A stretch of DNA of 64,000 nt, from IMG/VR virus record IMGVR_UViG_3300009788_000007, positions 16,601-80,600 of that record; one strand, given 5' to 3'. The translations under genes were made by a program, and so were the position numbers. Below the pieces are notes generated by a model. That model ran no database searches. It had not been told where the DNA came from and saw only the letters and a program-made list of their open reading frames with translations. Of this stretch, positions 138-39,444 are shown piece after piece. Source of the DNA: a virus. How positions within the stretch are numbered: the first letter of the stretch is position 1; every line of letters begins with the position of its first letter.

Positions 138-3041
138 ATGGGCACATCATTAACAAAATTTGTACAAGATAATGTAAACCCTGCAGATTACTACCAGTGG
201 GTGTTTTCCAACACTTCAATAACATCCGGTGAGAATCGGGTGCTATCTCCTTTCTCAAATGAAAAAACACCGTCCTTAATGATTAATGGGTCCAGTGGCA
301 AATGGAATGATTTATCTGGTGGCGGTAAGGGCGAAAAATCAGGTGGGCCTTCTATCATATCATTTCATGCAGCCCTGGAAGACGAAAAACAAATCATTGC
401 GGCACGACAACTATTCAGTAAGTTTATACATCCTACTATTAAAAGATCAGTTGTAAAACACTGGGCACGTGTTCTTAGAAAAACACCTATTGCTAAAAAA
501 TATATCGTTATCAAAAGATTATTATCTCCTGAATTTATTAAAGAAATGAATATAGGGTGGGATGGGGACCGCATAACAATACCCGTAGAGAACGAATTTG
601 GTTTATTTGTAAATGCAAAGCTTTATGATTTTGCTGCTAAAGCAAAGTCAACTAAAAAATTCACAGTAGCTAAGATGTTAAATTATTCTGATAAGAAAGA
701 TCATAAAAAACCTAACGGCGAAAAAATGAAATTTGGCTCACCCGTTATGATTTACCCTTTCTCAGCTTTTAAGTTAGCCGAAAAAGAAGGTTACATTGTT
801 GTCACTGAAGGTGAATGGGATGCTTTGTTTTTATTGTCCATTGGTATTCCTGCAGTAACAAGTACAGGTGGCAGCGAATCGTGGCCGGTACAGTACAACC
901 ACATGTTTAGAAGTCTAGATGTTATTATAGCTTATGATAATGATTCTGCAGGATTTATTGGCCGTAAAAAATGGGTGATACCTAACCTTTCAAAATATGC
1001 GAAATCAATTAAAGTTTTAAAAATTCCTAAACTGGCCATAGGGGAAGGTAAAAAAACAAAAGATGTTTTAGACTGGGCATTAACTAAAAAATCAATGCGT
1101 AAAAAATCAGGGTGGTTAGAGAAGTTTGAAAAACGCGCAACTTTAGTTTTAAAAAATGATGAAAAAGATATAATACATGAAGAAATTTTACATGTACCTC
1201 TAGATAAAGCCAGCCTGGGGAAGTACTACCATAAACAAATAAAAGTAAAAGCACTTGTTAGCGGTAAGATAAATTCACCATATGTGATACCTAGAAAATA
1301 CCGTGTGTCATGTGCACAGCTTGACAGTTGTGACGCCTGCCCACTGCGAGAATACAACAAAGAATTCCAAGAAAATTCAGTGCAGGAAAACGACCCGGAA
1401 CTTTTAAAATTGTTAGATGTTTCTGATAAAGCCCAGCGGGAAATGCTGCAAAGGAAAGCAGGTTTTATTAAAACTACAGATGCTTGTAAGTGCAAAGTTG
1501 ACACTATCTCTAGCATGAACGTCGAGCAGCTTTTACTGATACCCACTCTTGATTCTGACAGTGTGTACACGAATCGAATGGCCTATTACGTGGGCCATGG
1601 TTTGGCGGCCAATAAAGCCTATGAATTTAAAGGCACTACCACATCATCCCCCAGGACCCAGCACGCCATACACCTGTTTGACAAAGCTTCGCCTATAGAG
1701 GGCGAAATTGACACGTTTTCAATGACTGATGATATCTATGCCCAGTTAAAAGTTTTCCAGCCTAAAGGCAAGGAGACCCCTCTGGGCAAGCTTATGAAGA
1801 TAGCAGACTGGCAAGCCCGTAATGTCACCGAGATCATAGAACGTCCTGACTTACATATGGCAGTTGACATGTCATTCCACAGCGTAAAAGAATTTAGGTT
1901 TAATGGCTCCCTTATGAAAAAAGGCATGATGGACGTGCTTATATTTGGTGATGGGGCTTGCGGTAAGGGCTGGGTTAGTGAGCGTTTAGGGGGGTACTAC
2001 GGGGTAGGCTCTGTGGTGTCTGGAGAGAATTGTACTTTTGCAGGTCTAGTAGGCGGGGTACAGTCCACAGGTAAGCAGTTTTTAGTCACCTGGGGGGCTA
2101 TCCCACTTAATAACGGGGGGCATGTGATCATTGATGAGGCTGGAGCGCTGGGGCATGAGGAATGGTCTAGGATGTCCAGGGTACGCTCTGAAGGTGTGGC
2201 TGAAATTAATAAAATTGTTTCAGAAAAAACTCAGGCATACACACGCCTATTATGGTTAGCTAATGAAAAAAACGGTAAACCCATAATGAGTTTAAATACA
2301 GGTGTTGAAGGTATCAAACAATTGATAGGTGCTAACGAGGATATCCGAAGATTTGATGTAGCCCTTACTGTAGCCATTGATGAAGTACCAAGCGAACTTA
2401 TCAATACACTTAATCCAGTCGATTATTCTGATTCTGGAAAGTACCCTGCAGAACTTTGTAAGCAGCTTTTAATGTGGTTGTGGTCTCGCACTGTAGACCA
2501 AATTGAATTTAGTGAAGCTGCAGAAAAAGAAATAATAAAACAATCGATAAAATTTGGTAGAATGTACTCTGCAGAAATACCACTAATACAAACTGAGAAT
2601 GTACGCTACAAGATTTGTAAATGGGCCATTTGGGCTGCAGGTAGACTGTTCAGTACTGACCCCACTGGAGAAAAATTAATTATACAGTCTAAACATGTGC
2701 GCACAGCCTGCCAAGTGGTAGACGGCTTTTATGAAAAAGAAAGCATGAATTATAAAATGTTCAGTGAACAGAAACATTCAACAGGTGGCAACCTGCATGA
2801 TAAAAAAGTTATTAAAATATTCAGCAGTAATGATGCTAACCGTGCAGTAGTTATTGAAGGGCTACTAAGACTGCATATAATAACAACAGATAACCTAGCA
2901 GACTATTGTGACGGTGACTTAGCAGAGGCCAAAATATTAATAGGTACATTGGTGCAGGCTAAATGTTTAAGCCGTGTTAAAAACGGTTACTTAAAAAACC
3001 AAGCTTTTTCTATGTGGCTCAGAGGCCAAGGGGGTATGTGA
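138..3041 (+). CDS. TOPRIM DNA primase fused to MCM-type AAA+ helicase
   Basis: TOPRIM motifs VVTEGEWDAL and AYDND; central Cys cluster; Walker A GDGACGK; MCM-like GAIPLNNGGHVIIDE; arginine finger RRFD. ATG 138 follows a purine-rich RBS (track start TTG 123). Confidence 0.85.
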   Translation: MGTSLTKFVQDNVNPADYYQWVFSNTSITSGENRVLSPFSNEKTPSLMINGSSGKWNDLSGGGKGEKSGGPSIISFHAALEDEKQIIAARQLFSKFIHPTIKRSVVKHWARVLRKTPIAKKYIVIKRLLSPEFIKEMNIGWDGDRITIPVENEFGLFVNAKLYDFAAKAKSTKKFTVAKMLNYSDKKDHKKPNGEKMKFGSPVMIYPFSAFKLAEKEGYIVVTEGEWDALFLLSIGIPAVTSTGGSESWPVQYNHMFRSLDVIIAYDNDSAGFIGRKKWVIPNLSKYAKSIKVLKIPKLAIGEGKKTKDVLDWALTKKSMRKKSGWLEKFEKRATLVLKNDEKDIIHEEILHVPLDKASLGKYYHKQIKVKALVSGKINSPYVIPRKYRVSCAQLDSCDACPLREYNKEFQENSVQENDPELLKLLDVSDKAQREMLQRKAGFIKTTDACKCKVDTISSMNVEQLLLIPTLDSDSVYTNRMAYYVGHGLAANKAYEFKGTTTSSPRTQHAIHLFDKASPIEGEIDTFSMTDDIYAQLKVFQPKGKETPLGKLMKIADWQARNVTEIIERPDLHMAVDMSFHSVKEFRFNGSLMKKGMMDVLIFGDGACGKGWVSERLGGYYGVGSVVSGENCTFAGLVGGVQSTGKQFLVTWGAIPLNNGGHVIIDEAGALGHEEWSRMSRVRSEGVAEINKIVSEKTQAYTRLLWLANEKNGKPIMSLNTGVEGIKQLIGANEDIRRFDVALTVAIDEVPSELINTLNPVDYSDSGKYPAELCKQLLMWLWSRTVDQIEFSEAAEKEIIKQSIKFGRMYSAEIPLIQTENVRYKICKWAIWAAGRLFSTDPTGEKLIIQSKHVRTACQVVDGFYEKESMNYKMFSEQKHSTGGNLHDKKVIKIFSSNDANRAVVIEGLLRLHIITTDNLADYCDGDLAEAKILIGTLVQAKCLSRVKNGYLKNQAFSMWLRGQGGM

Positions 3042-3184
3042 TGGGAAAATCTAAAGGTAAGCATATTAAATGTATGACATGTTTTGTTAAAAAGACTGAG
3101 CATAAATTTGATAGTAATGATGTATGGGACATGCACACAAACGGTGTGCGTATTACCTGCAAGAAATGTAAAGGTAAAAAATAA
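3041..3184 (+). CDS. 47-aa CxxC..CxxC zinc-ribbon protein (below track cutoff)
   Basis: MGKSKGKHIKCMTC...ITCKKCKGKK; TGATG and TAATG coupling at both ends. Confidence 0.6.
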   Translation: MGKSKGKHIKCMTCFVKKTEHKFDSNDVWDMHTNGVRITCKKCKGKK

Positions 3185-3453
3185 TGGCTGTATACGTTGA
3201 CCCCATACAAAATTGCCCCACAAATAAAAACTGGCCGTACACCCAGTTCTGCCACATGATTGCAGACACACCAAAAGAATTAAAAGCCTTTGCTTTAATA
3301 ATAGACTTGAAACTAAGTTGGTACCAAGAAAAATCATTTCCACATTTTGATTTAACAAAATCACGCAGGGTAGAGGCTATAAAAATGGGGGCTATAGATT
3401 TAAACTTAAGACAATTTGTAAAAAAGATGCAGGAGATTAGAGGAAATGGGTAG
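3184..3453 (+). CDS. DUF4031-like protein
   Basis: MAVYVD...CHMIADT..EL..FA...PHFDLT..RR..AI..GA signature. Confidence 0.8.
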   Translation: MAVYVDPIQNCPTNKNWPYTQFCHMIADTPKELKAFALIIDLKLSWYQEKSFPHFDLTKSRRVEAIKMGAIDLNLRQFVKKMQEIRGNG

Positions 3454-3594
3454 AGTACCAGACCAAGTGTTTACAATTGAAGGTGTAGTAAGGCATTTCG
3501 AATGTAAGATAACAAACCACCAAGCACGCTACTATAGAGAAACTACAGCTTTTTGGTTGTACGTATATGAAAACTTTATTGTGGGTAAAAAATA

Positions 3595-4284
3595 GTGCTC
3601 TGCAAGATTGACACCTGCACTCAACCCCAACTAGAGGGTAGACCTTTCTGCTGTAAAAAACATTGGAATAAACTACCACGCAAAATAAAAACCGAACTAA
3701 ATAAATTGTATGACGATGGTAAAGGATCTATTACAGTTATCGCTCTTGAACGTTTAACTATAAAAGCAAACTTTGCAATTAAGCTACCCAGTACCTGGGA
3801 AAAACGCGCTGCATTTTACTTAAAGAAACTTAAAAAACAGGTTAAGAAAGAGCGCATATTAATTGTCACTGGGGATGTTACAAGAACTAATAAAAATAGG
3901 GGCTTATGGAAGATCTTAAATAAATTAATTGTTAGGGCTGGTATTGAAAATGAATCTGCAGTAAGAACAAATTTTAATAGTGAGCCCCACAGCATCGCAG
4001 TAGTCTTAGGTGTAGAAGGCTTTAAACAAACCCTACCACCCTATAAAGTAAAAAATGGTATAGTGCATATGCAAAACCAGATAGTAACACCTGAAGATTA
4101 TATAAACGCAGCTTGGGCCACACGCCCTAATAAAGGCACACGCTTGGGTAACACATATATGATATCTTGTGAGCCCCACCCAGAAGAGTATGACGAATTT
4201 GGTGAAGATGAAATAACTGAAATAAAATTTTGTTTAGCGTGGGCCGCAAAACTATATAAATCAAAAATGAAAGTTGGTATTTAA
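3595..4284 (+). CDS. hypothetical protein with N-terminal Cys/His cluster
   Basis: 229-aa ORF packed in the operon; C..C...FCCKKHW. Confidence 0.6.
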   Translation: MLCKIDTCTQPQLEGRPFCCKKHWNKLPRKIKTELNKLYDDGKGSITVIALERLTIKANFAIKLPSTWEKRAAFYLKKLKKQVKKERILIVTGDVTRTNKNRGLWKILNKLIVRAGIENESAVRTNFNSEPHSIAVVLGVEGFKQTLPPYKVKNGIVHMQNQIVTPEDYINAAWATRPNKGTRLGNTYMISCEPHPEEYDEFGEDEITEIKFCLAWAAKLYKSKMKVGI

Positions 4285-35622: not shown

Positions 35623-37710
35623 TTAATCTAATTTTGCTTCAGCTGCACGCATCTGTGGAAGGGTAAGCTGCTTAGTTTTATCATTAAAAAAGAACTTATC
35701 GTTCAGCTTCCCGCGCCGAAATAACGCAGACCTTTCTTTGCCTAAAGCCATTTGCTGGGTAGCCTTTGACTGATTGCGTAACCACTGGGGGTATGTTTGA
35801 GTAGCCGGAACCTGCCCTTTAAAGGTATCGCTTGCTGATGCCCTGGTAGATGGTGGTAATTCATTAAGCCCTGGTATGCCTAAATCCTCAAATGATTTTA
35901 TTACAGGTACCGTGGTACTCCTGCAATTATGCACTAATAACCCATTAGCTAAATAAGTCTCGTCATCCACAACAGCTAGATTGTAAACATACCCGTTGTA
36001 GTACTCATCTACATTTGATATGCTTGATGAGGCAAACCAATTAGAGGGGGAGTTATGGCTACGTTCACTAAAAAAGAACTTGAAAAAATTATTAAAAGAG
36101 AGCACTGGAAATTGGGTAAACCTCTTAGACAAATTGAAAGAGAACTTGGGGTAGGTAAAACTGTTGTGCAAAGTAGTTGCAAACGCTTGGGAATTAAGAC
36201 ACGCACCAGAACCGAGAGTATTAGAAGTGGGCACGCTAATGGCCATCTTAAGGGGGCATCTGGTGCTGACCATTGGAGAAAACAGAATATCAAAAAAAGT
36301 AAAAAGCTTGCTAAACAAAGTTCTGCAAGAATGAAGAAGTCTAACCCAATGTTTGATAAAGGCACTAAAGAAAAAATTCTTAAAACACGTGCTGATAATT
36401 ATAGTAAAAATCCAACAAGACATGAAGCGGCACTTATTAAAATATTTCAACGCAGGGGTATAATATTTTGTTTTCAAAAATCTGTCAGGGGTGGTATTGC
36501 TGATTTTACTTTTGGTAAAGTTATCCTTGAGATTGACGGTAGAGGACATGCCAGCAGAAAAACTGCTGATGCTATACGGGATAAGGTCCTCAATACACTT
36601 GGTTGGCATGTTGTGCGAGTTAGTCAAGACAGCCTGCGTGATTACAGACGACACCCCAACGGCCATTGGCATCTTAGTAAACTTTTCAAAGTTTTGAAAA
36701 AGTACATCACCTGTACAAACATCCCTAGCATTAAGCCATCCTCTGGTTTTGGTAAGTATCGGGTGGTCGTCCGTGAGGCTAACACAGGTATTGAAAGACG
36801 TTTTTAGTTTTTTAATTTTACCGTTATGTGATTTAGCCATAACTGTATAAACTTTTTTCCATCTGTTTAAATGTGTCAATACCTCGTCACCTACCTTAAC
36901 ATCTTCAATAGGTGTTAAACCTTTTTTTGTAGTTATTAGAGTACCCCCCACAAGCGCATTAAAATGTTGGGGAGGCCTGGGGCCTTCACCAATTGGGAAT
37001 ACCTCACCATCAAGAGAAGCGCAGATAGGTGTTGTACGGCTGTCTAGTGTTGCGACATATTTTACTTTATCAATCACATCAGAATTTGCTTCGTAGGTTG
37101 CTTCTCTTGCTTTTACAGTTACCTCGGTCACAGATGTGCGCACTAACGTCTGCGCGTTATGGCGAGTACCATTAAAAACACCATCTGAAAAACCTTGTGC
37201 TTTTGTGCCGACAATCCTACGCGTCATATCCGGGATACTGTCACCCTCTGCTAAACCTATACTAAGCCGTCTTGTAATTTCATTGGCGTCCCGGTCTGCA
37301 TACTGATTAAAATATTTTTTAATAGTTTGCCCTCTTACTTTACCATTTACAATTTGCCGCATCACTGCTTGAGAGGGTACAGTTAGTGCTAATGAAATAG
37401 GGGAATTTTTATTAATAATACGTATTTGATTCTCTGCTTCATTATTTGCAATGTCTAAAAGATCACTCTTAAGGTCAACACCTAAACCCTTGTACCCTTC
37501 ACGCAAAAGTATTGTGTATGCTTTTCGCATTCTGATAAATCTATCCGCTGACATATTTCTGCGCAGTCTGCGGTTTATCTCTTTTTCGACATCAGGCAGC
37601 ACATCATCATTAAGCGTGGCTAAAATTTTATTGACTTCTTTATTACGCAGGCGCTCTAAAAAAATAGCATGCTTTATGGCCTCATCTTGTATGTCGTCAT
37701 TTATTGCCAT
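35623..37710 (-). CDS. head morphogenesis protein (SPP1 gp7/MuF family) containing an intein
   Basis: YVATLDSRTTPICASLDG...PPQHFN|CRST motif split by the intein. Confidence 0.9.
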   Translation of the reverse strand: MAINDDIQDEAIKHAIFLERLRNKEVNKILATLNDDVLPDVEKEINRRLRRNMSADRFIRMRKAYTILLREGYKGLGVDLKSDLLDIANNEAENQIRIINKNSPISLALTVPSQAVMRQIVNGKVRGQTIKKYFNQYADRDANEITRRLSIGLAEGDSIPDMTRRIVGTKAQGFSDGVFNGTRHNAQTLVRTSVTEVTVKAREATYEANSDVIDKVKYVATLDSRTTPICASLDGEVFPIGEGPRPPQHFNALVGGTLITTKKGLTPIEDVKVGDEVLTHLNRWKKVYTVMAKSHNGKIKKLKTSFNTCVSLTDDHPILTKTRGWLNARDVCTGDVLFQNFEKFTKMPMAVGVSSVITQAVLTNSHNMPTKCIEDLIPYSISSFSAGMSSTVNLKDNFTKSKISNTTPDRFLKTKYYTPALKYFNKCRFMSCWIFTIIISTCFKNFFFSAFIKHWVRLLHSCRTLFSKLFTFFDILFSPMVSTRCPLKMAISVPTSNTLGSGACLNSQAFATTLHNSFTYPKFSFNLSKRFTQFPVLSFNNFFKFFFSERSHNSPSNWFASSSISNVDEYYNGYVYNLAVVDDETYLANGLLVHNCRSTTVPVIKSFEDLGIPGLNELPPSTRASASDTFKGQVPATQTYPQWLRNQSKATQQMALGKERSALFRRGKLNDKFFFNDKTKQLTLPQMRAAEAKLD
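35926..36957 (-). mobile_element. 344-aa intein starting with Ala and ending His-Asn before Cys+1
   Basis: Block A ALVGGTLITT..G..PIEDVKVGDEVLTH; block B LTDDHPILT..GW; blocks F/G VYNLAV.DDETYLANGLLVHN|C. Confidence 0.9.
36055..36807 (+). CDS. Vsr/DUF559-type endonuclease with N-terminal HTH/NUMOD3-like region, antisense inside the intein
   Basis: PTRHE..L...FQK....IADF....VILEIDG.GH......RD..L...GWHVVRV; RBS GAGGGGGAG just before the ATG. Confidence 0.85.
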   Translation: MATFTKKELEKIIKREHWKLGKPLRQIERELGVGKTVVQSSCKRLGIKTRTRTESIRSGHANGHLKGASGADHWRKQNIKKSKKLAKQSSARMKKSNPMFDKGTKEKILKTRADNYSKNPTRHEAALIKIFQRRGIIFCFQKSVRGGIADFTFGKVILEIDGRGHASRKTADAIRDKVLNTLGWHVVRVSQDSLRDYRRHPNGHWHLSKLFKVLKKYITCTNIPSIKPSSGFGKYRVVVREANTGIERRF

Positions 37711-37935: not shown

Positions 37936-39444
37936 TCACTCGTCCATTTCAAGTTCGCTATCATCTTGGTTTGTCCCATCATCATCGGGGTCATCATCGT
38001 CCCCTGTAATAAGTCCTAAAGCTGGGCCTTCAGCTAAAATAGCTTCTATCTCATCTTCAATATTTACATTTTCAGATAACACACTTCGGCGTTTCAACTC
38101 AGTTAAAAATGTAGTTTGTGATATTTCTTTAGCAGCTCTCATGTTAAAAAGAATTGTTAAATCTTCTTTATTGCTAAACACCACACCAAAGTCATTAAAA
38201 ATATCAAATGAAAAATCTTTAGGTAATTTTTTATTTAACCACCGCGCAGAAAATTCTGCAGATTTATTTAGGGCTTCTTCTTCTCGCCTAATCCAAGCTT
38301 GTACAGCACTCTCATTGTCATTAGCATCAATGGCCCTACCAGTAGCACTTACAGAAGGGCTTGTAATAACCAAAGGTTCAGTACCTACCACAGTCATTTT
38401 ATTTTCGATATCCATGATATCATCTTGACCTACTTTAATTGAATTTCCTGAATGTTCTACCCATTTCATATCAGCCTCATGGTTCGCTGTAGCAAATTGT
38501 GCACGAGGTCCTATAGTAATACCATTATCTACTTGTTCTTGTGTGACACCTTTAATAAAAAGTACACCTGCACGTGCAACATTAAGTAAGCTGCGTTGGT
38601 CAGAGTATGATTGCCAATGTGTAAGGTTTAACCAAGCTAGTTTTAAAAATGGTGGCTTTGCTGTTAGGTCTCCATCTTGATCTGTGTAGTAAGTAACTAA
38701 AGGTATCTCCCCAAATGTATGTGTGTCACTTTCCTTTAGAACCCAAGTACTAGAGCTATCAGCATTTTTACTTTCTTGCCATAGTTCCCATTTTGTACGT
38801 GTCCATCTTTTAATTTGTTTAACTACTTCGTCCCCAAAATCACCTTCACTAGAAATAAAACTTTGAAAATACCTTATCTCATCTAACTTTGTGTCCTCTC
38901 CCACCTTCCAGAAGAACAAATTTAACGGCGAAATCTCAGACCATACAGGCCTTGCCCCTGCAGATTTTTCTTCTGCTATTGTGGCTGTTCTTGGCACATC
39001 ATTTTTATCAAAAAATTTCATTGTGTTAAAATCTACAAGTACATGTGAAAGGCCCCACTTTAAAGATGTTCTAAAAAGGTCATACCCAAACTGAGTTACA
39101 CTCCTGCCTTTTTTATCCACATCTTTAAAAACAGCTTCTAAAGCAGGGTCTAAACCTTCAGTAGGAGCCCATGTAACCTGTTTTTTAAATGGTTTTGCAG
39201 ACAGCCTATCAATAGTGTTTCCCAAACCTTCAAACAAAAATGATCTATCTAACCTGTTTTCATATGCAGTTTGTGATTCGGCTTCCTGCTTAGGTAGCCA
39301 CTTGGTAGCACCTTTACGCATTGCTTTTGTGCCATCAAGTAAATCTGATATTAAATCCCAAGAGAACTTTTCACGCATGGTATCATAGCGTACTGAAGGT
39401 GTAGATACATCAGCTTTTTTAGGAGTACTTACAGTGTTCACCAT
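37936..39444 (-). CDS. portal protein (DUF4055-like)
   Basis: DLLDGTKAMR..WLPK..AES..AY..RL; EIPLV..Y; PPFL.LA.LNL.HWQSYSD. Confidence 0.9.
   Translation of the reverse strand: MVNTVSTPKKADVSTPSVRYDTMREKFSWDLISDLLDGTKAMRKGATKWLPKQEAESQTAYENRLDRSFLFEGLGNTIDRLSAKPFKKQVTWAPTEGLDPALEAVFKDVDKKGRSVTQFGYDLFRTSLKWGLSHVLVDFNTMKFFDKNDVPRTATIAEEKSAGARPVWSEISPLNLFFWKVGEDTKLDEIRYFQSFISSEGDFGDEVVKQIKRWTRTKWELWQESKNADSSSTWVLKESDTHTFGEIPLVTYYTDQDGDLTAKPPFLKLAWLNLTHWQSYSDQRSLLNVARAGVLFIKGVTQEQVDNGITIGPRAQFATANHEADMKWVEHSGNSIKVGQDDIMDIENKMTVVGTEPLVITSPSVSATGRAIDANDNESAVQAWIRREEEALNKSAEFSARWLNKKLPKDFSFDIFNDFGVVFSNKEDLTILFNMRAAKEISQTTFLTELKRRSVLSENVNIEDEIEAILAEGPALGLITGDDDDPDDDGTNQDDSELEMDE

What the first reader, a model, noticed from the sequence alone, without database searches (positions are those of the whole stretch)
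35926..36957. Intein carrying its endonuclease as a separate gene on the opposite strand, in exact codon register
Seen: the MuF intein has intact Hint blocks, but where an in-frame homing endonuclease normally sits there is about 215 aa of Phe/Ser-rich low-information sequence. That stretch is the reverse complement of a 250-aa ORF (36055-36807, +) with its own RBS, HTH/NUMOD3-like N-terminus and a full Vsr/DUF559 motif. The two frames align codon to codon (36055-35623=432), so the intein frame stays open only if the nuclease never uses TTA, CTA or TCA. By my count it has about 16 Leu and 18 Ser and uses none of these, although TTA is abundant in other genes here. The nuclease C-terminus also overlaps intein block B. 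Established: canonical inteins encode the nuclease in the same polypeptide. Inference: this is a two-strand mobile element in which splicing discards the shadow peptide and nuclease expression is uncoupled from the late structural gene, possibly allowing homing during DNA replication. I know of no described intein with this layout.
Basis: partly seen in the sequence, partly recalled or inferred. Interest (0 to 1): 0.93.

Follow-up and report, generated by a model that had tools for sequence, protein, structure and literature searches.

The report
Intein with antisense homing-endonuclease gene
A self-splicing protein insert (intein) in a phage head-assembly gene carries its DNA-cutting "homing" enzyme as a separate gene on the opposite strand, codon against codon; the layout is real and kept by selection, but a 2025 preprint already describes it, so this is a new example, not a new kind.

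Summary
The MuF-like head gene (35623-37710, minus strand) holds a 344-aa intein at 35926-36957. The middle 214 codons of that intein are the exact codon-register antisense of a 250-aa Vsr-like/DUF559 nuclease gene (36055-36807, plus strand). The nuclease uses no TTA, CTA or TCA codons, against about 14 expected (P about 7e-9).

The same layout, always in the same register, occurs in 13 further loci, in three Vibrio phage genomes and 10 metagenomic viral contigs. Eight other related loci carry 5-19 such codons. In those, MuF is split into two genes with a split intein.

Free-standing relatives of the nuclease do not avoid these codons. Intein-less MuF alleles exist and read PPQHF-NCRSTTVP. Between two Vibrio phages the intein is 97-100% identical while the flanking exteins are 69-85% identical, which points to recent transfer.

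The novelty claim fails. Gosselin et al. (bioRxiv 10.1101/2025.01.02.630785) describe antisense VSR-like endonucleases in full inteins and report non-canonical endonucleases in minor-capsid (MuF-like) inteins. By their account, antisense endonucleases in inteins were noted as early as Gorbalenya 1998. This scan has also reported the arrangement on other DNA.

Verdict: a new member of a known, rare kind. Splicing, expression and cleavage remain untested.

The parts
35623..37710 (-). MuF-like (SPP1 gp7 family) head-morphogenesis gene with intein; 695-aa precursor
   Evidence: ORF. Pfam Phage_Mu_F 8.3e-11 and PHROG 241 'head morphogenesis' 6e-91. It lies between the portal-like gene (37936-39444) and the scaffold-like and capsid-like genes.
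36958..37710 (-). N-extein (residues 1-251), ending PPQHFN
   Evidence: Alignment with intein-less alleles P0001-P0004. The Pfam MuF match ends at N251.
35926..36957 (-). Intein, 344 aa, Ala1 ... His-Asn, followed by Cys+1
   Evidence: Gap in the alignment to intein-less alleles. Pfam Intein_splicing and Hint_2. Boundary motifs are shared by 11 contiguous homologs.
36685..36957 (-). Hint N-lobe (intein residues 1-91; blocks A and B with T313-x-x-H316)
   Evidence: AF2 pLDDT 70-87. With the C-lobe it aligns to the Ssp DnaB mini-intein at Z 21.6, rmsd 2.2 A, 140 residues.
36043..36684 (-). 'Shadow' linker of the intein: 214 codons that are the antisense of the nuclease gene
   Evidence: pLDDT below 50. 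Phe/Ser-rich. Substitutions concentrate at plus-strand third codon positions, which are minus-strand first positions. No Pfam match.
35926..36042 (-). Hint C-lobe (blocks F and G, ending VHN)
   Evidence: pLDDT 76-89. Structural match to mini-inteins.
35623..35925 (-). C-extein (CRSTTVP...), 100 aa plus stop codon
   Evidence: Alignment with intein-less alleles.
36055..36807 (+). Nuclease gene, 250 aa: N-terminal helix-turn-helix region, helical middle, Vsr-like/DUF559 catalytic core
   Evidence: DUF559 1.8e-10. PDB sequence hit 3HRL at 2.2e-8. AF2 pLDDT 87.7. Top Foldseek hits are I-Bth0305I (3R3P), 3HRL and Vsr. 16 homologs keep E124, E159, D161, R168 and D176 in every sequence, and D150 and H165 in at least 90%.
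36382..36636 (+). Vsr-like catalytic core (nuclease residues 110-194), motif D150 ... E159-x-D161-G-R-G-H165
   Evidence: Pfam stretch; invariant and nearly invariant columns.
36044..36052 (+). Shine-Dalgarno motif GAGGGGGAG for the nuclease, ending 2 nt before the ATG
   Evidence: Sequence. GGAG or GAGG at a similar distance in nearly all homologs.
36685..36807 (.). True dual-coding zone: nuclease C-terminal tail against the folded Hint N-lobe (block B)
   Evidence: Coordinates. Here plus-strand first codon positions vary most (0.656 against 0.557), which is the signature of selection on the minus frame.
35996..36024 (+). Weak promoter-like element TTGTAG-17-TATGCT with a TGn extended -10; a hint only
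   Evidence: Read from the sequence. It falls below the scan tool's threshold. Similar elements occur upstream in several homologs, and L019 has a consensus TTGACA-17-TATAAT.

Best explanation
This is a composite selfish element inserted at the conserved H-x-N|C-R-S motif of a MuF-like head-morphogenesis gene. It consists of an Ala1 (class-2-like) intein whose endonuclease slot holds a free-standing-type Vsr-like/EDxHD homing-endonuclease gene, written on the opposite strand in exact antiparallel codon register.

Shown by sequence and comparison:
- Both reading frames are intact.
- The nuclease frame is the one under protein-level selection across the middle 195 codons.
- The intein frame dominates over the last ~55 nuclease codons.
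- The host frame is kept stop-free because the nuclease avoids TTA, CTA and TCA. This is the only antisense register in which synonymous codon choice alone can achieve that.

Inferred:
- The MuF precursor is translated through a 214-aa unstructured linker. The two Hint lobes then fold together and splice it out.
- The nuclease is made from its own transcript and its own Shine-Dalgarno site.
- The nuclease cuts intein-less MuF alleles (PPQHFN|CRST) in co-infecting phages, and repair copies intein plus nuclease gene as one unit.
- When the frame constraint is lost, the host gene becomes a split-intein pair, as seen in sister lineages.
For: - Pfam, PDB and fold evidence supports both proteins.
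- Antisense-stop codons: 0 observed against 13.8 expected in the window, P 6.8e-9. The same holds in each low-GC contiguous homolog, with P from 1e-6 to 1e-10.
- Pooled over 10 contiguous loci, 0 of 343 Leu+Ser codons are TTA/CTA/TCA. In the unconstrained zone of split loci the figure is 79 of 168.
- Distant free-standing or in-frame relatives carry 5-59 such codons.
- The register is 0 in all 19 analysed loci listed.
- Only register 0 can be made stop-free by synonymous recoding: minimum 0 stops, against 3 and 2 for the other two registers.
- The codon-position pattern switches at about nuclease codon 195.
- L001 against L003: 6 synonymous and 4 nonsynonymous changes in the plus frame, 1 and 9 in the minus frame.
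- A Shine-Dalgarno motif is conserved upstream of the nuclease start.
- The nearest relatives of the window's MuF (64% identity) carry intein-less alleles.
- Between two Vibrio phages the intein is 97-100% identical and the flanking exteins are 69-85% identical, with the step at the intein ends.
- The published description of this architecture reaches the same interpretation.
Against: - There is no expression, splicing or cleavage data of any kind.
- No promoter reached the scan threshold upstream of the nuclease.
- Ala at intein position 1 means the standard first splicing step is impossible. Splicing must rely on a class-2-type route, which I inferred from motifs only.
- Foldseek E-values for the nuclease core are marginal (6.7e-3), although the ranking is coherent.
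- The nuclease target could be something other than the empty MuF site.
Confidence: 0.8

Rival explanations
1. Two nested selfish elements rather than one unit. The nuclease is an independent free-standing-type homing endonuclease gene whose target is the nuclease-less (mini-)intein sequence, as in the Dassa et al. 2009 invasion model. It would not target the intein-less MuF allele. The intein would then not depend on it for spread.
For: [quoted passage not shown] The nuclease family has many free-standing relatives in viral contigs. The same MuF site hosts unrelated inteins with other endonuclease types or none.
Against: The high-identity tract between Vibrio phages 1.266.O and 1.082.O spans the whole intein and ends at the intein boundaries, not at the nuclease gene's ends. 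No Ala1 mini-intein alleles appeared among homologs covering the N-lobe. Their lengths cluster at about 700 aa and 425-437 aa, but that survey was not exhaustive.
Confidence: 0.15
2. The plus ORF is a decaying or silent relic. The intein behaves as a mini-intein with a junk linker, and the open nuclease frame is a leftover.
For: No direct expression evidence. No strong promoter detected. The homing-cycle model predicts endonuclease decay after fixation.
Against: The ORF is intact in 21 loci at 25-45% identity, with invariant catalytic residues. Third-position-biased substitution indicates selection on the plus frame. A Shine-Dalgarno motif is conserved. The AF2 model is confident. An unselected antisense ORF in 38% GC DNA would quickly collect stops.
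Confidence: 0.04
3. The open host frame is an accident of arrival: only insertions that happened to be open survived. There would be no continuing selection on codon choice.
For: In GC-rich relatives an open frame is expected by chance, with P0 0.29 in L014 and 0.10 in L019. The arrangement could therefore have originated without selection in a GC-rich phage.
Against: Low-GC lineages that have diverged to 38-45% amino-acid identity still show 0 against 10-17 expected. Once the host gene is split, the same nuclease codons fill with TTA/CTA/TCA at the background rate.
Confidence: 0.02

Closest known systems
Non-canonical inteins with an 'anti-sense VSR-like HEN' (Gosselin, Arsenault & Gogarten, bioRxiv 10.1101/2025.01.02.630785)
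   Same: Both are full, contiguous inteins with a Vsr-like endonuclease ORF on the antisense strand of the endonuclease slot. In both, the in-frame stretch is predicted to be unstructured. The preprint lists minor capsid protein (IPR006528, which I take from memory to be the MuF/SPP1 gp7 domain) among the four host types of non-canonical endonucleases. It proposes origin by invasion of an intein by a free-standing endonuclease gene.
   Different: The host phages differ. Here it is a 38% GC phage whose relatives infect Vibrio, against actinobacteriophages in the preprint. tblastn with the window's nuclease finds no actinophage. In the passages I searched, 'codon' occurs only in 'stop codon', so I found no mention of codon register or TTA/CTA/TCA avoidance. 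The preprint predicts split-intein derivatives but did not survey for them.
'Fractured genes': split inteins with a free-standing Vsr-like or GIY-YIG endonuclease gene between the halves (Dassa et al. 2009, PMC2677866)
   Same: The endonuclease superfamily is the same (Vsr-like). Both occur in phages, and in both the endonuclease gene sits in the intein's endonuclease slot. Sister loci L002, L008, L010-L013, L015, L017 and L020 are truly fractured.
   Different: In Dassa's 26 loci all three ORFs lie on the same strand and the host gene is broken. In the window the nuclease is antisense and the host gene is one ORF. MuF is not among their host enzymes.
I-Bth0305I, prototype of the EDxHD homing-endonuclease family (Taylor et al. 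2011, PMC3239194; PDB 3R3P)
   Same: It is the best structural match of the nuclease core. The architecture is bipartite in both: an N-terminal DNA-binding region plus a C-terminal Vsr-like catalytic domain with conserved acidic and His residues.
   Different: I-Bth0305I is encoded in a group I intron of recA, on the sense strand. Sequence similarity is too low for an HMM hit. I did not map the catalytic residues one to one.
Antisense or out-of-frame LAGLIDADG genes in inteins: Ssp DnaX, Chloroflexus SpoVR-like (Gorbalenya 1998, cited second-hand), Gordonia phage MuF inteins
   Same: The principle is the same: an endonuclease in a separate frame inside a functional intein. Gordonia phage Lennon's MuF intein sits at the same H-x-N|CRC site and has an antisense LAGLIDADG ORF, also in register 0. 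The dnaX preprint shows frame-dependent selection like mine.
   Different: The endonuclease family differs. Those inteins start with Cys1, this one with Ala1. The dnaX endonuclease is described as a +2 ORF in the 2026 preprint.

Membership tests
Intein (Hint-fold protein-splicing element) | Hint fold formed by an N-lobe and a C-lobe | tested here: met
   With the low-confidence middle trimmed, the AF2 model aligns to the Ssp DnaB mini-intein at Z 21.6, rmsd 2.2 A, 140 residues. Pfam Intein_splicing scores 35.8 bits, right at its cutoff.
Intein (Hint-fold protein-splicing element) | In-frame insertion at a conserved host site, with intein-less alleles that read straight through | tested here: met
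   P0001-P0004 read PP-x-H-x-(N/Q)-CRSTTVP with no insert.
Intein (Hint-fold protein-splicing element) | C-terminal His-Asn followed by a Cys/Ser/Thr +1 nucleophile; block B T-x-x-H | tested here: met
   VHN|C596 and T313-D-D-H316.
Class 1 intein | Cys, Ser or Thr at intein position 1 | tested here: not met
   Ala252 occupies position 1. Ala is found in 10 of 11 contiguous homologs; L016 has Ser. The class 3 W-C-T positions are also not seen, so a class-2-like route (as in the Mja KlbA intein) is inferred from motifs only.
Intein (Hint-fold protein-splicing element) | Protein splicing activity | not testable with these tools
   Needs expression of the precursor and detection of ligated exteins.
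Vsr-like / EDxHD homing endonucleases | Vsr-type nuclease fold | tested here: met
   DUF559 1.8e-10. 3HRL 2.2e-8. Foldseek top hits are 3R3P (prob 1.00, TM 0.65 on the target), 3HRL, 1CW0 and 1VSR, with marginal E-values.
Vsr-like / EDxHD homing endonucleases | Conserved catalytic acidic and histidine residues (composite EDxHD motif) | tested here: inconclusive
   E124, E159, D161 and D176 are invariant in 16 homologs; D150 and H165 are kept in at least 90%. I did not make a residue-by-residue superposition on I-Bth0305I D196/H213.
Vsr-like / EDxHD homing endonucleases | Site-specific cleavage of the element-free allele | not testable with these tools
   Needs purified protein and the PPQHFN|CRST-coding target.
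Non-canonical intein with antisense endonuclease gene (Gorbalenya 1998; Gosselin et al. 2025) | Separate endonuclease ORF on the antisense strand of the endonuclease slot, with the host frame open across it | tested here: met
.
Fractured gene (Dassa et al. 2009) | Host gene broken into two ORFs by a split intein, with all ORFs on one strand | tested here: not met
   The window's host gene is one ORF and the nuclease is antisense. The sister loci are broken, but their nuclease is also antisense.

The most novel reading that the evidence does not exclude
Contiguous antisense-endonuclease inteins may be the direct ancestors of a set of naturally split MuF inteins ('antisense fractured genes'), which would be a route to split inteins that Dassa's same-strand model does not include. 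On the nuclease tree the contiguous forms are basal and the split forms are nested, with 2-3 transitions. The C-half start codons are the antisense of His (CAT) codons of the nuclease. The exact antiparallel register would be a general rule for such elements, because it is the only register that synonymous Leu/Ser choice can keep stop-free.
Probability: 0.5. Interest if true: 0.5.

Novelty: new member of a known kind. Interest (0 to 1): 0.35.

Why it matters
Annotation. Gene callers and curators miss these nuclease genes. None of the three Vibrio phage GenBank records annotates one. The inteins are therefore read as decaying or 'hint domain' proteins.

Dual coding. The case is a clean natural example of antisense dual coding under measurable selection. 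A structural gene constrains the synonymous codon choice of a selfish gene on the other strand. The constraint disappears as soon as the host gene is split.

Practical use. The family offers a set of related contiguous and naturally split inteins with Ala1 chemistry, plus compact Vsr-like endonucleases.

Novelty. It does not open a new category. The architecture is in print (preprint 2025, forerunners 1998), and this scan has reported it repeatedly on other DNA.

Tried and rejected
- Literature searches with 'opposite strand', 'antisense', 'DUF559' and strand synonyms found nothing relevant. The 2025 preprint surfaced only after a lead from an earlier scan note, followed by a bioRxiv-only search.
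- Gorbalenya 1998 is not held. I cite it second-hand through.
- The first viral-contig scan, with a two-sequence profile, gave only one locus. A four-sequence profile gave 66.
- The sigma-70 scan found no promoter at threshold upstream of the nuclease. The weak extended -10 that I read by eye is only a hint.
- A PDB sequence search with the nuclease profile found 3HRL but not I-Bth0305I. The link to 3R3P rests on the fold search.
- I considered and rejected the idea that the minus-frame middle encodes a real domain. It has no family hit and pLDDT below 50, and its substitutions fall on minus-frame first positions.
- I considered class 3 splicing. The W-C-T positions are not present.
- The zero count in the 'overlapped zone' of split loci is partly circular, because ORF ends define that zone. 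I rely on the free-zone rate and on the contiguous loci instead.
Full report
**What is there**

The minus-strand ORF 35623-37710 encodes a 695-aa MuF/SPP1-gp7-like head-morphogenesis protein (Pfam Phage_Mu_F, PHROG 241). It is interrupted after Asn251 by a 344-aa intein. The finding's coordinates, 35926-36957, are exactly that intein.

Inside it, on the plus strand, lies a 250-aa ORF (36055-36807). This ORF matches DUF559 above Pfam's threshold and the DUF559 structure 3HRL by sequence.

An AlphaFold2 model built from 16 homologs is confident (pLDDT 87.7). It shows an N-terminal three-helix region, a helical middle and an alpha/beta core. The best solved matches of that core are the I-Bth0305I catalytic domain (3R3P), 3HRL and E. 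coli Vsr. The E-values are marginal, but the ranking is coherent.

The plus and minus codons occupy the same triplets. The nuclease contains no TTA, CTA or TCA among 16 Leu and 18 Ser codons.

**Is it more than chance?**

- TTA, CTA and TCA make up 5.9% of codons in the other genes of the window.
- The chance of none in this protein is 6.8e-9.
- The two other antisense registers carry 6 and 29 stops.
- For this protein, only the exact register can be freed of stops by synonymous recoding. The minimum is 0 stops, against 3 and 2 for the other registers. This explains why the register is what it is.

**Anatomy of the intein**

An AlphaFold2 model of the intein gives two confident segments: MuF residues 247-342 and 557-597, with pLDDT 70-89. 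A 214-residue middle scores below 50. With the middle trimmed, the model superposes on mini-inteins at Z about 21 over 140 residues. The two lobes therefore make a complete Hint fold, and the shadow stretch sits where inteins normally carry their endonuclease.

The shadow is Phe- and Ser-rich because it is the antisense of a Lys-, Glu- and Arg-rich protein.

The intein begins with Ala, as do 10 of 11 contiguous homologs. It has T-x-x-H in block B and ends His-Asn|Cys. From motifs I infer a class-2-like splicing route. This is not tested.

**Relatives**

tblastn and profile-guided scans found the same nuclease family in three Vibrio phage genomes and in IMG/VR contigs. The Vibrio phages are 1.266.O, 1.082.O and 1.265.O, and none of their records annotates the nuclease.

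Every host ORF I scanned with Pfam is MuF-like or carries the intein at the same PP-x-H-x-N|CRS site. Some are fused to a portal domain or to an ADP-ribosyltransferase domain. In all 19 loci listed the nuclease is antisense and in register 0.

The loci fall into two classes:
- **Contiguous:** 14 loci, including the window, have no stop in the host frame and one ORF of 600-1076 aa.
- **Split:** 8 loci have 5-19 stops, all within about the first 130 nuclease codons in the six closest loci. There the host gene is split into an N-part carrying the N-lobe and a C-part carrying the C-lobe. Each C-part has an ATG and most have a Shine-Dalgarno-like motif.

**Selection**

- In low-GC contiguous loci the expected number of antisense-stop codons is 10-17 and the observed number is 0. 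P ranges from 1e-6 to 1e-10 per locus.
- Pooled over 10 contiguous loci, 0 of 343 Leu+Ser codons are TTA/CTA/TCA. In the released zone of split loci the figure is 79 of 168.
- More distant free-standing or in-frame relatives carry 5-59 such codons.

The nuclease family therefore has no intrinsic bias against these codons. The avoidance appears only where the other strand must be translated.

Across nuclease codons 1-195, third positions vary most (0.67, against 0.54 and 0.46). This marks selection on the plus frame. Across codons 196-250, which face the folded Hint N-lobe, first positions vary most (0.66). This marks selection on the minus frame.

Between the near-identical Vibrio phage pair, the 10 differences in the nuclease ORF are 6 synonymous and 4 nonsynonymous in the plus frame. 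In the minus frame they are 1 and 9.

A GGAG/GAGG motif precedes the nuclease start in nearly all loci. Promoter-like elements occur upstream in several loci, including a consensus TTGACA-17-TATAAT in L019. In the window only a sub-threshold element exists.

**Mobility**

The closest MuF relatives of the window (64% and 60% identity, on ~62-kb contigs) lack the intein and read PPQHF-NCRSTTVP.

Between Vibrio phages 1.266.O and 1.082.O the intein is 97-100% identical. The exteins on either side drop to 69-85%, with the step at the intein ends. This is what recent transfer of the whole intein-plus-nuclease unit between diverged alleles would give.

On a nuclease tree the contiguous forms are basal and paraphyletic and the split forms are nested, with 2-3 changes of state. 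The tree is midpoint-rooted with weak deep support, so the direction of change is only suggested.

**Comparison with what is known**

- **Dassa et al. 2009** described Vsr-like endonuclease genes between split-intein halves, with all ORFs on one strand.
- **Taylor et al. 2011** characterised I-Bth0305I as the prototype of the family.
It reports 'anti-sense VSR-like HEN' in full inteins of actinobacteriophages. It finds that minor capsid (IPR006528) inteins carry only non-canonical endonucleases. It shows that the in-frame stretch has no recognisable structure, and it proposes invasion by a free-standing endonuclease gene. It credits Gorbalenya 1998 and Gogarten 2002 with antisense LAGLIDADG genes in the Ssp DnaX and Chloroflexus inteins.
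- **A 2026 preprint** shows frame-dependent selection in the dnaX case.

I checked one actinophage example myself. Gordonia phage Lennon's MuF gene has a Cys1 intein at the same site, with an antisense LAGLIDADG ORF also in register 0.

The architecture is therefore described.

**What this analysis adds**

I did not see any of the following in the passages of those papers that I read:
- the exact-register rule and its explanation from the genetic code;
- the quantified codon avoidance, with free-standing relatives and split loci as comparisons;
- the dual-coding switch over Hint block B;
- split-intein sister lineages with an antisense nuclease gene.

All four are refinements of a known kind.

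**Verdict**

The window holds a new member, in a low-GC phage related to Vibrio phages, of the rare class of inteins with an antisense homing-endonuclease gene. This scan has already reported the same arrangement on other DNA. Expression, splicing and cleavage are all inferred.

Noticed in passing
L002:2581-4632; also L008, L010, L011, L012/L013, L015, L017, L020: In these viral contigs the MuF gene is split in two by 5-19 stops in the intein frame. The Vsr-like nuclease gene is still antisense and in register. The C-half genes start with ATG (GTG in L012), most with a Shine-Dalgarno-like motif. In at least L002 and L010 the start codon is the antisense of a His (CAT) codon of the nuclease. 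I did not find this 'antisense fractured gene' form in the papers read.
   Followed up: partly
L072:1577-4687 (Gordonia phage Lennon, MF919514.1): The MuF-like minor capsid gene has a Cys1 intein at the same H-x-N|CRC site. An antisense ORF in register 0 carries a LAGLIDADG-type motif. The GenBank record annotates only the host gene.
   Followed up: partly
L001, L003, L004 (Vibrio phages 1.266.O, 1.082.O, 1.265.O): The GenBank records annotate the host ORF as 'hint domain protein', 'coil containing protein' or 'hedgehog/hint domain protein'. The 245-246-aa antisense nuclease ORF is not annotated at all.
   Followed up: yes
L001 vs L003, locus positions 2000-3900: The MuF exteins that flank the intein are the most divergent parts of the two otherwise ~95% identical loci (69-85%), while the intein itself is 97-100% identical.
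   Followed up: partly
P0131 (547 aa) and P0178 (612 aa): These MuF homologs carry a different, Cys1 intein of about 196 and 260 aa at the same insertion site. I did not examine whether their middles shadow another antisense gene.
   Followed up: no
L019:2050-4461; L009:2779-6006; L017:3490-5892: The host proteins vary. L019 is MuF plus a C-terminal ADP-ribosyltransferase domain (PF03496). L009 and L017 are portal-MuF fusions. All carry the intein at the same motif.
   Followed up: no
L005:1300-4281 (Vibrio phage CP-T1 gp10); L023-L030, L033, L034 and L037 (~706-724-aa ORFs): A related Vsr-like nuclease core lies in frame, on the same strand, inside long proteins annotated as helicase or unannotated. 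These may be fusions or canonical in-frame inteins.
   Followed up: no
window 9436-62920: In the non-overlapping set of long ORFs (120 aa or more) built, every ORF in this stretch is on the minus strand. The nuclease would be transcribed against the whole late-gene block.
   Followed up: no
L019, about 51 nt upstream of the nuclease start (2863): A consensus TTGACA-17-TATAAT promoter sits inside the intein C-lobe coding region of a 58% GC contig. It is placed to drive the antisense nuclease gene.
   Followed up: no
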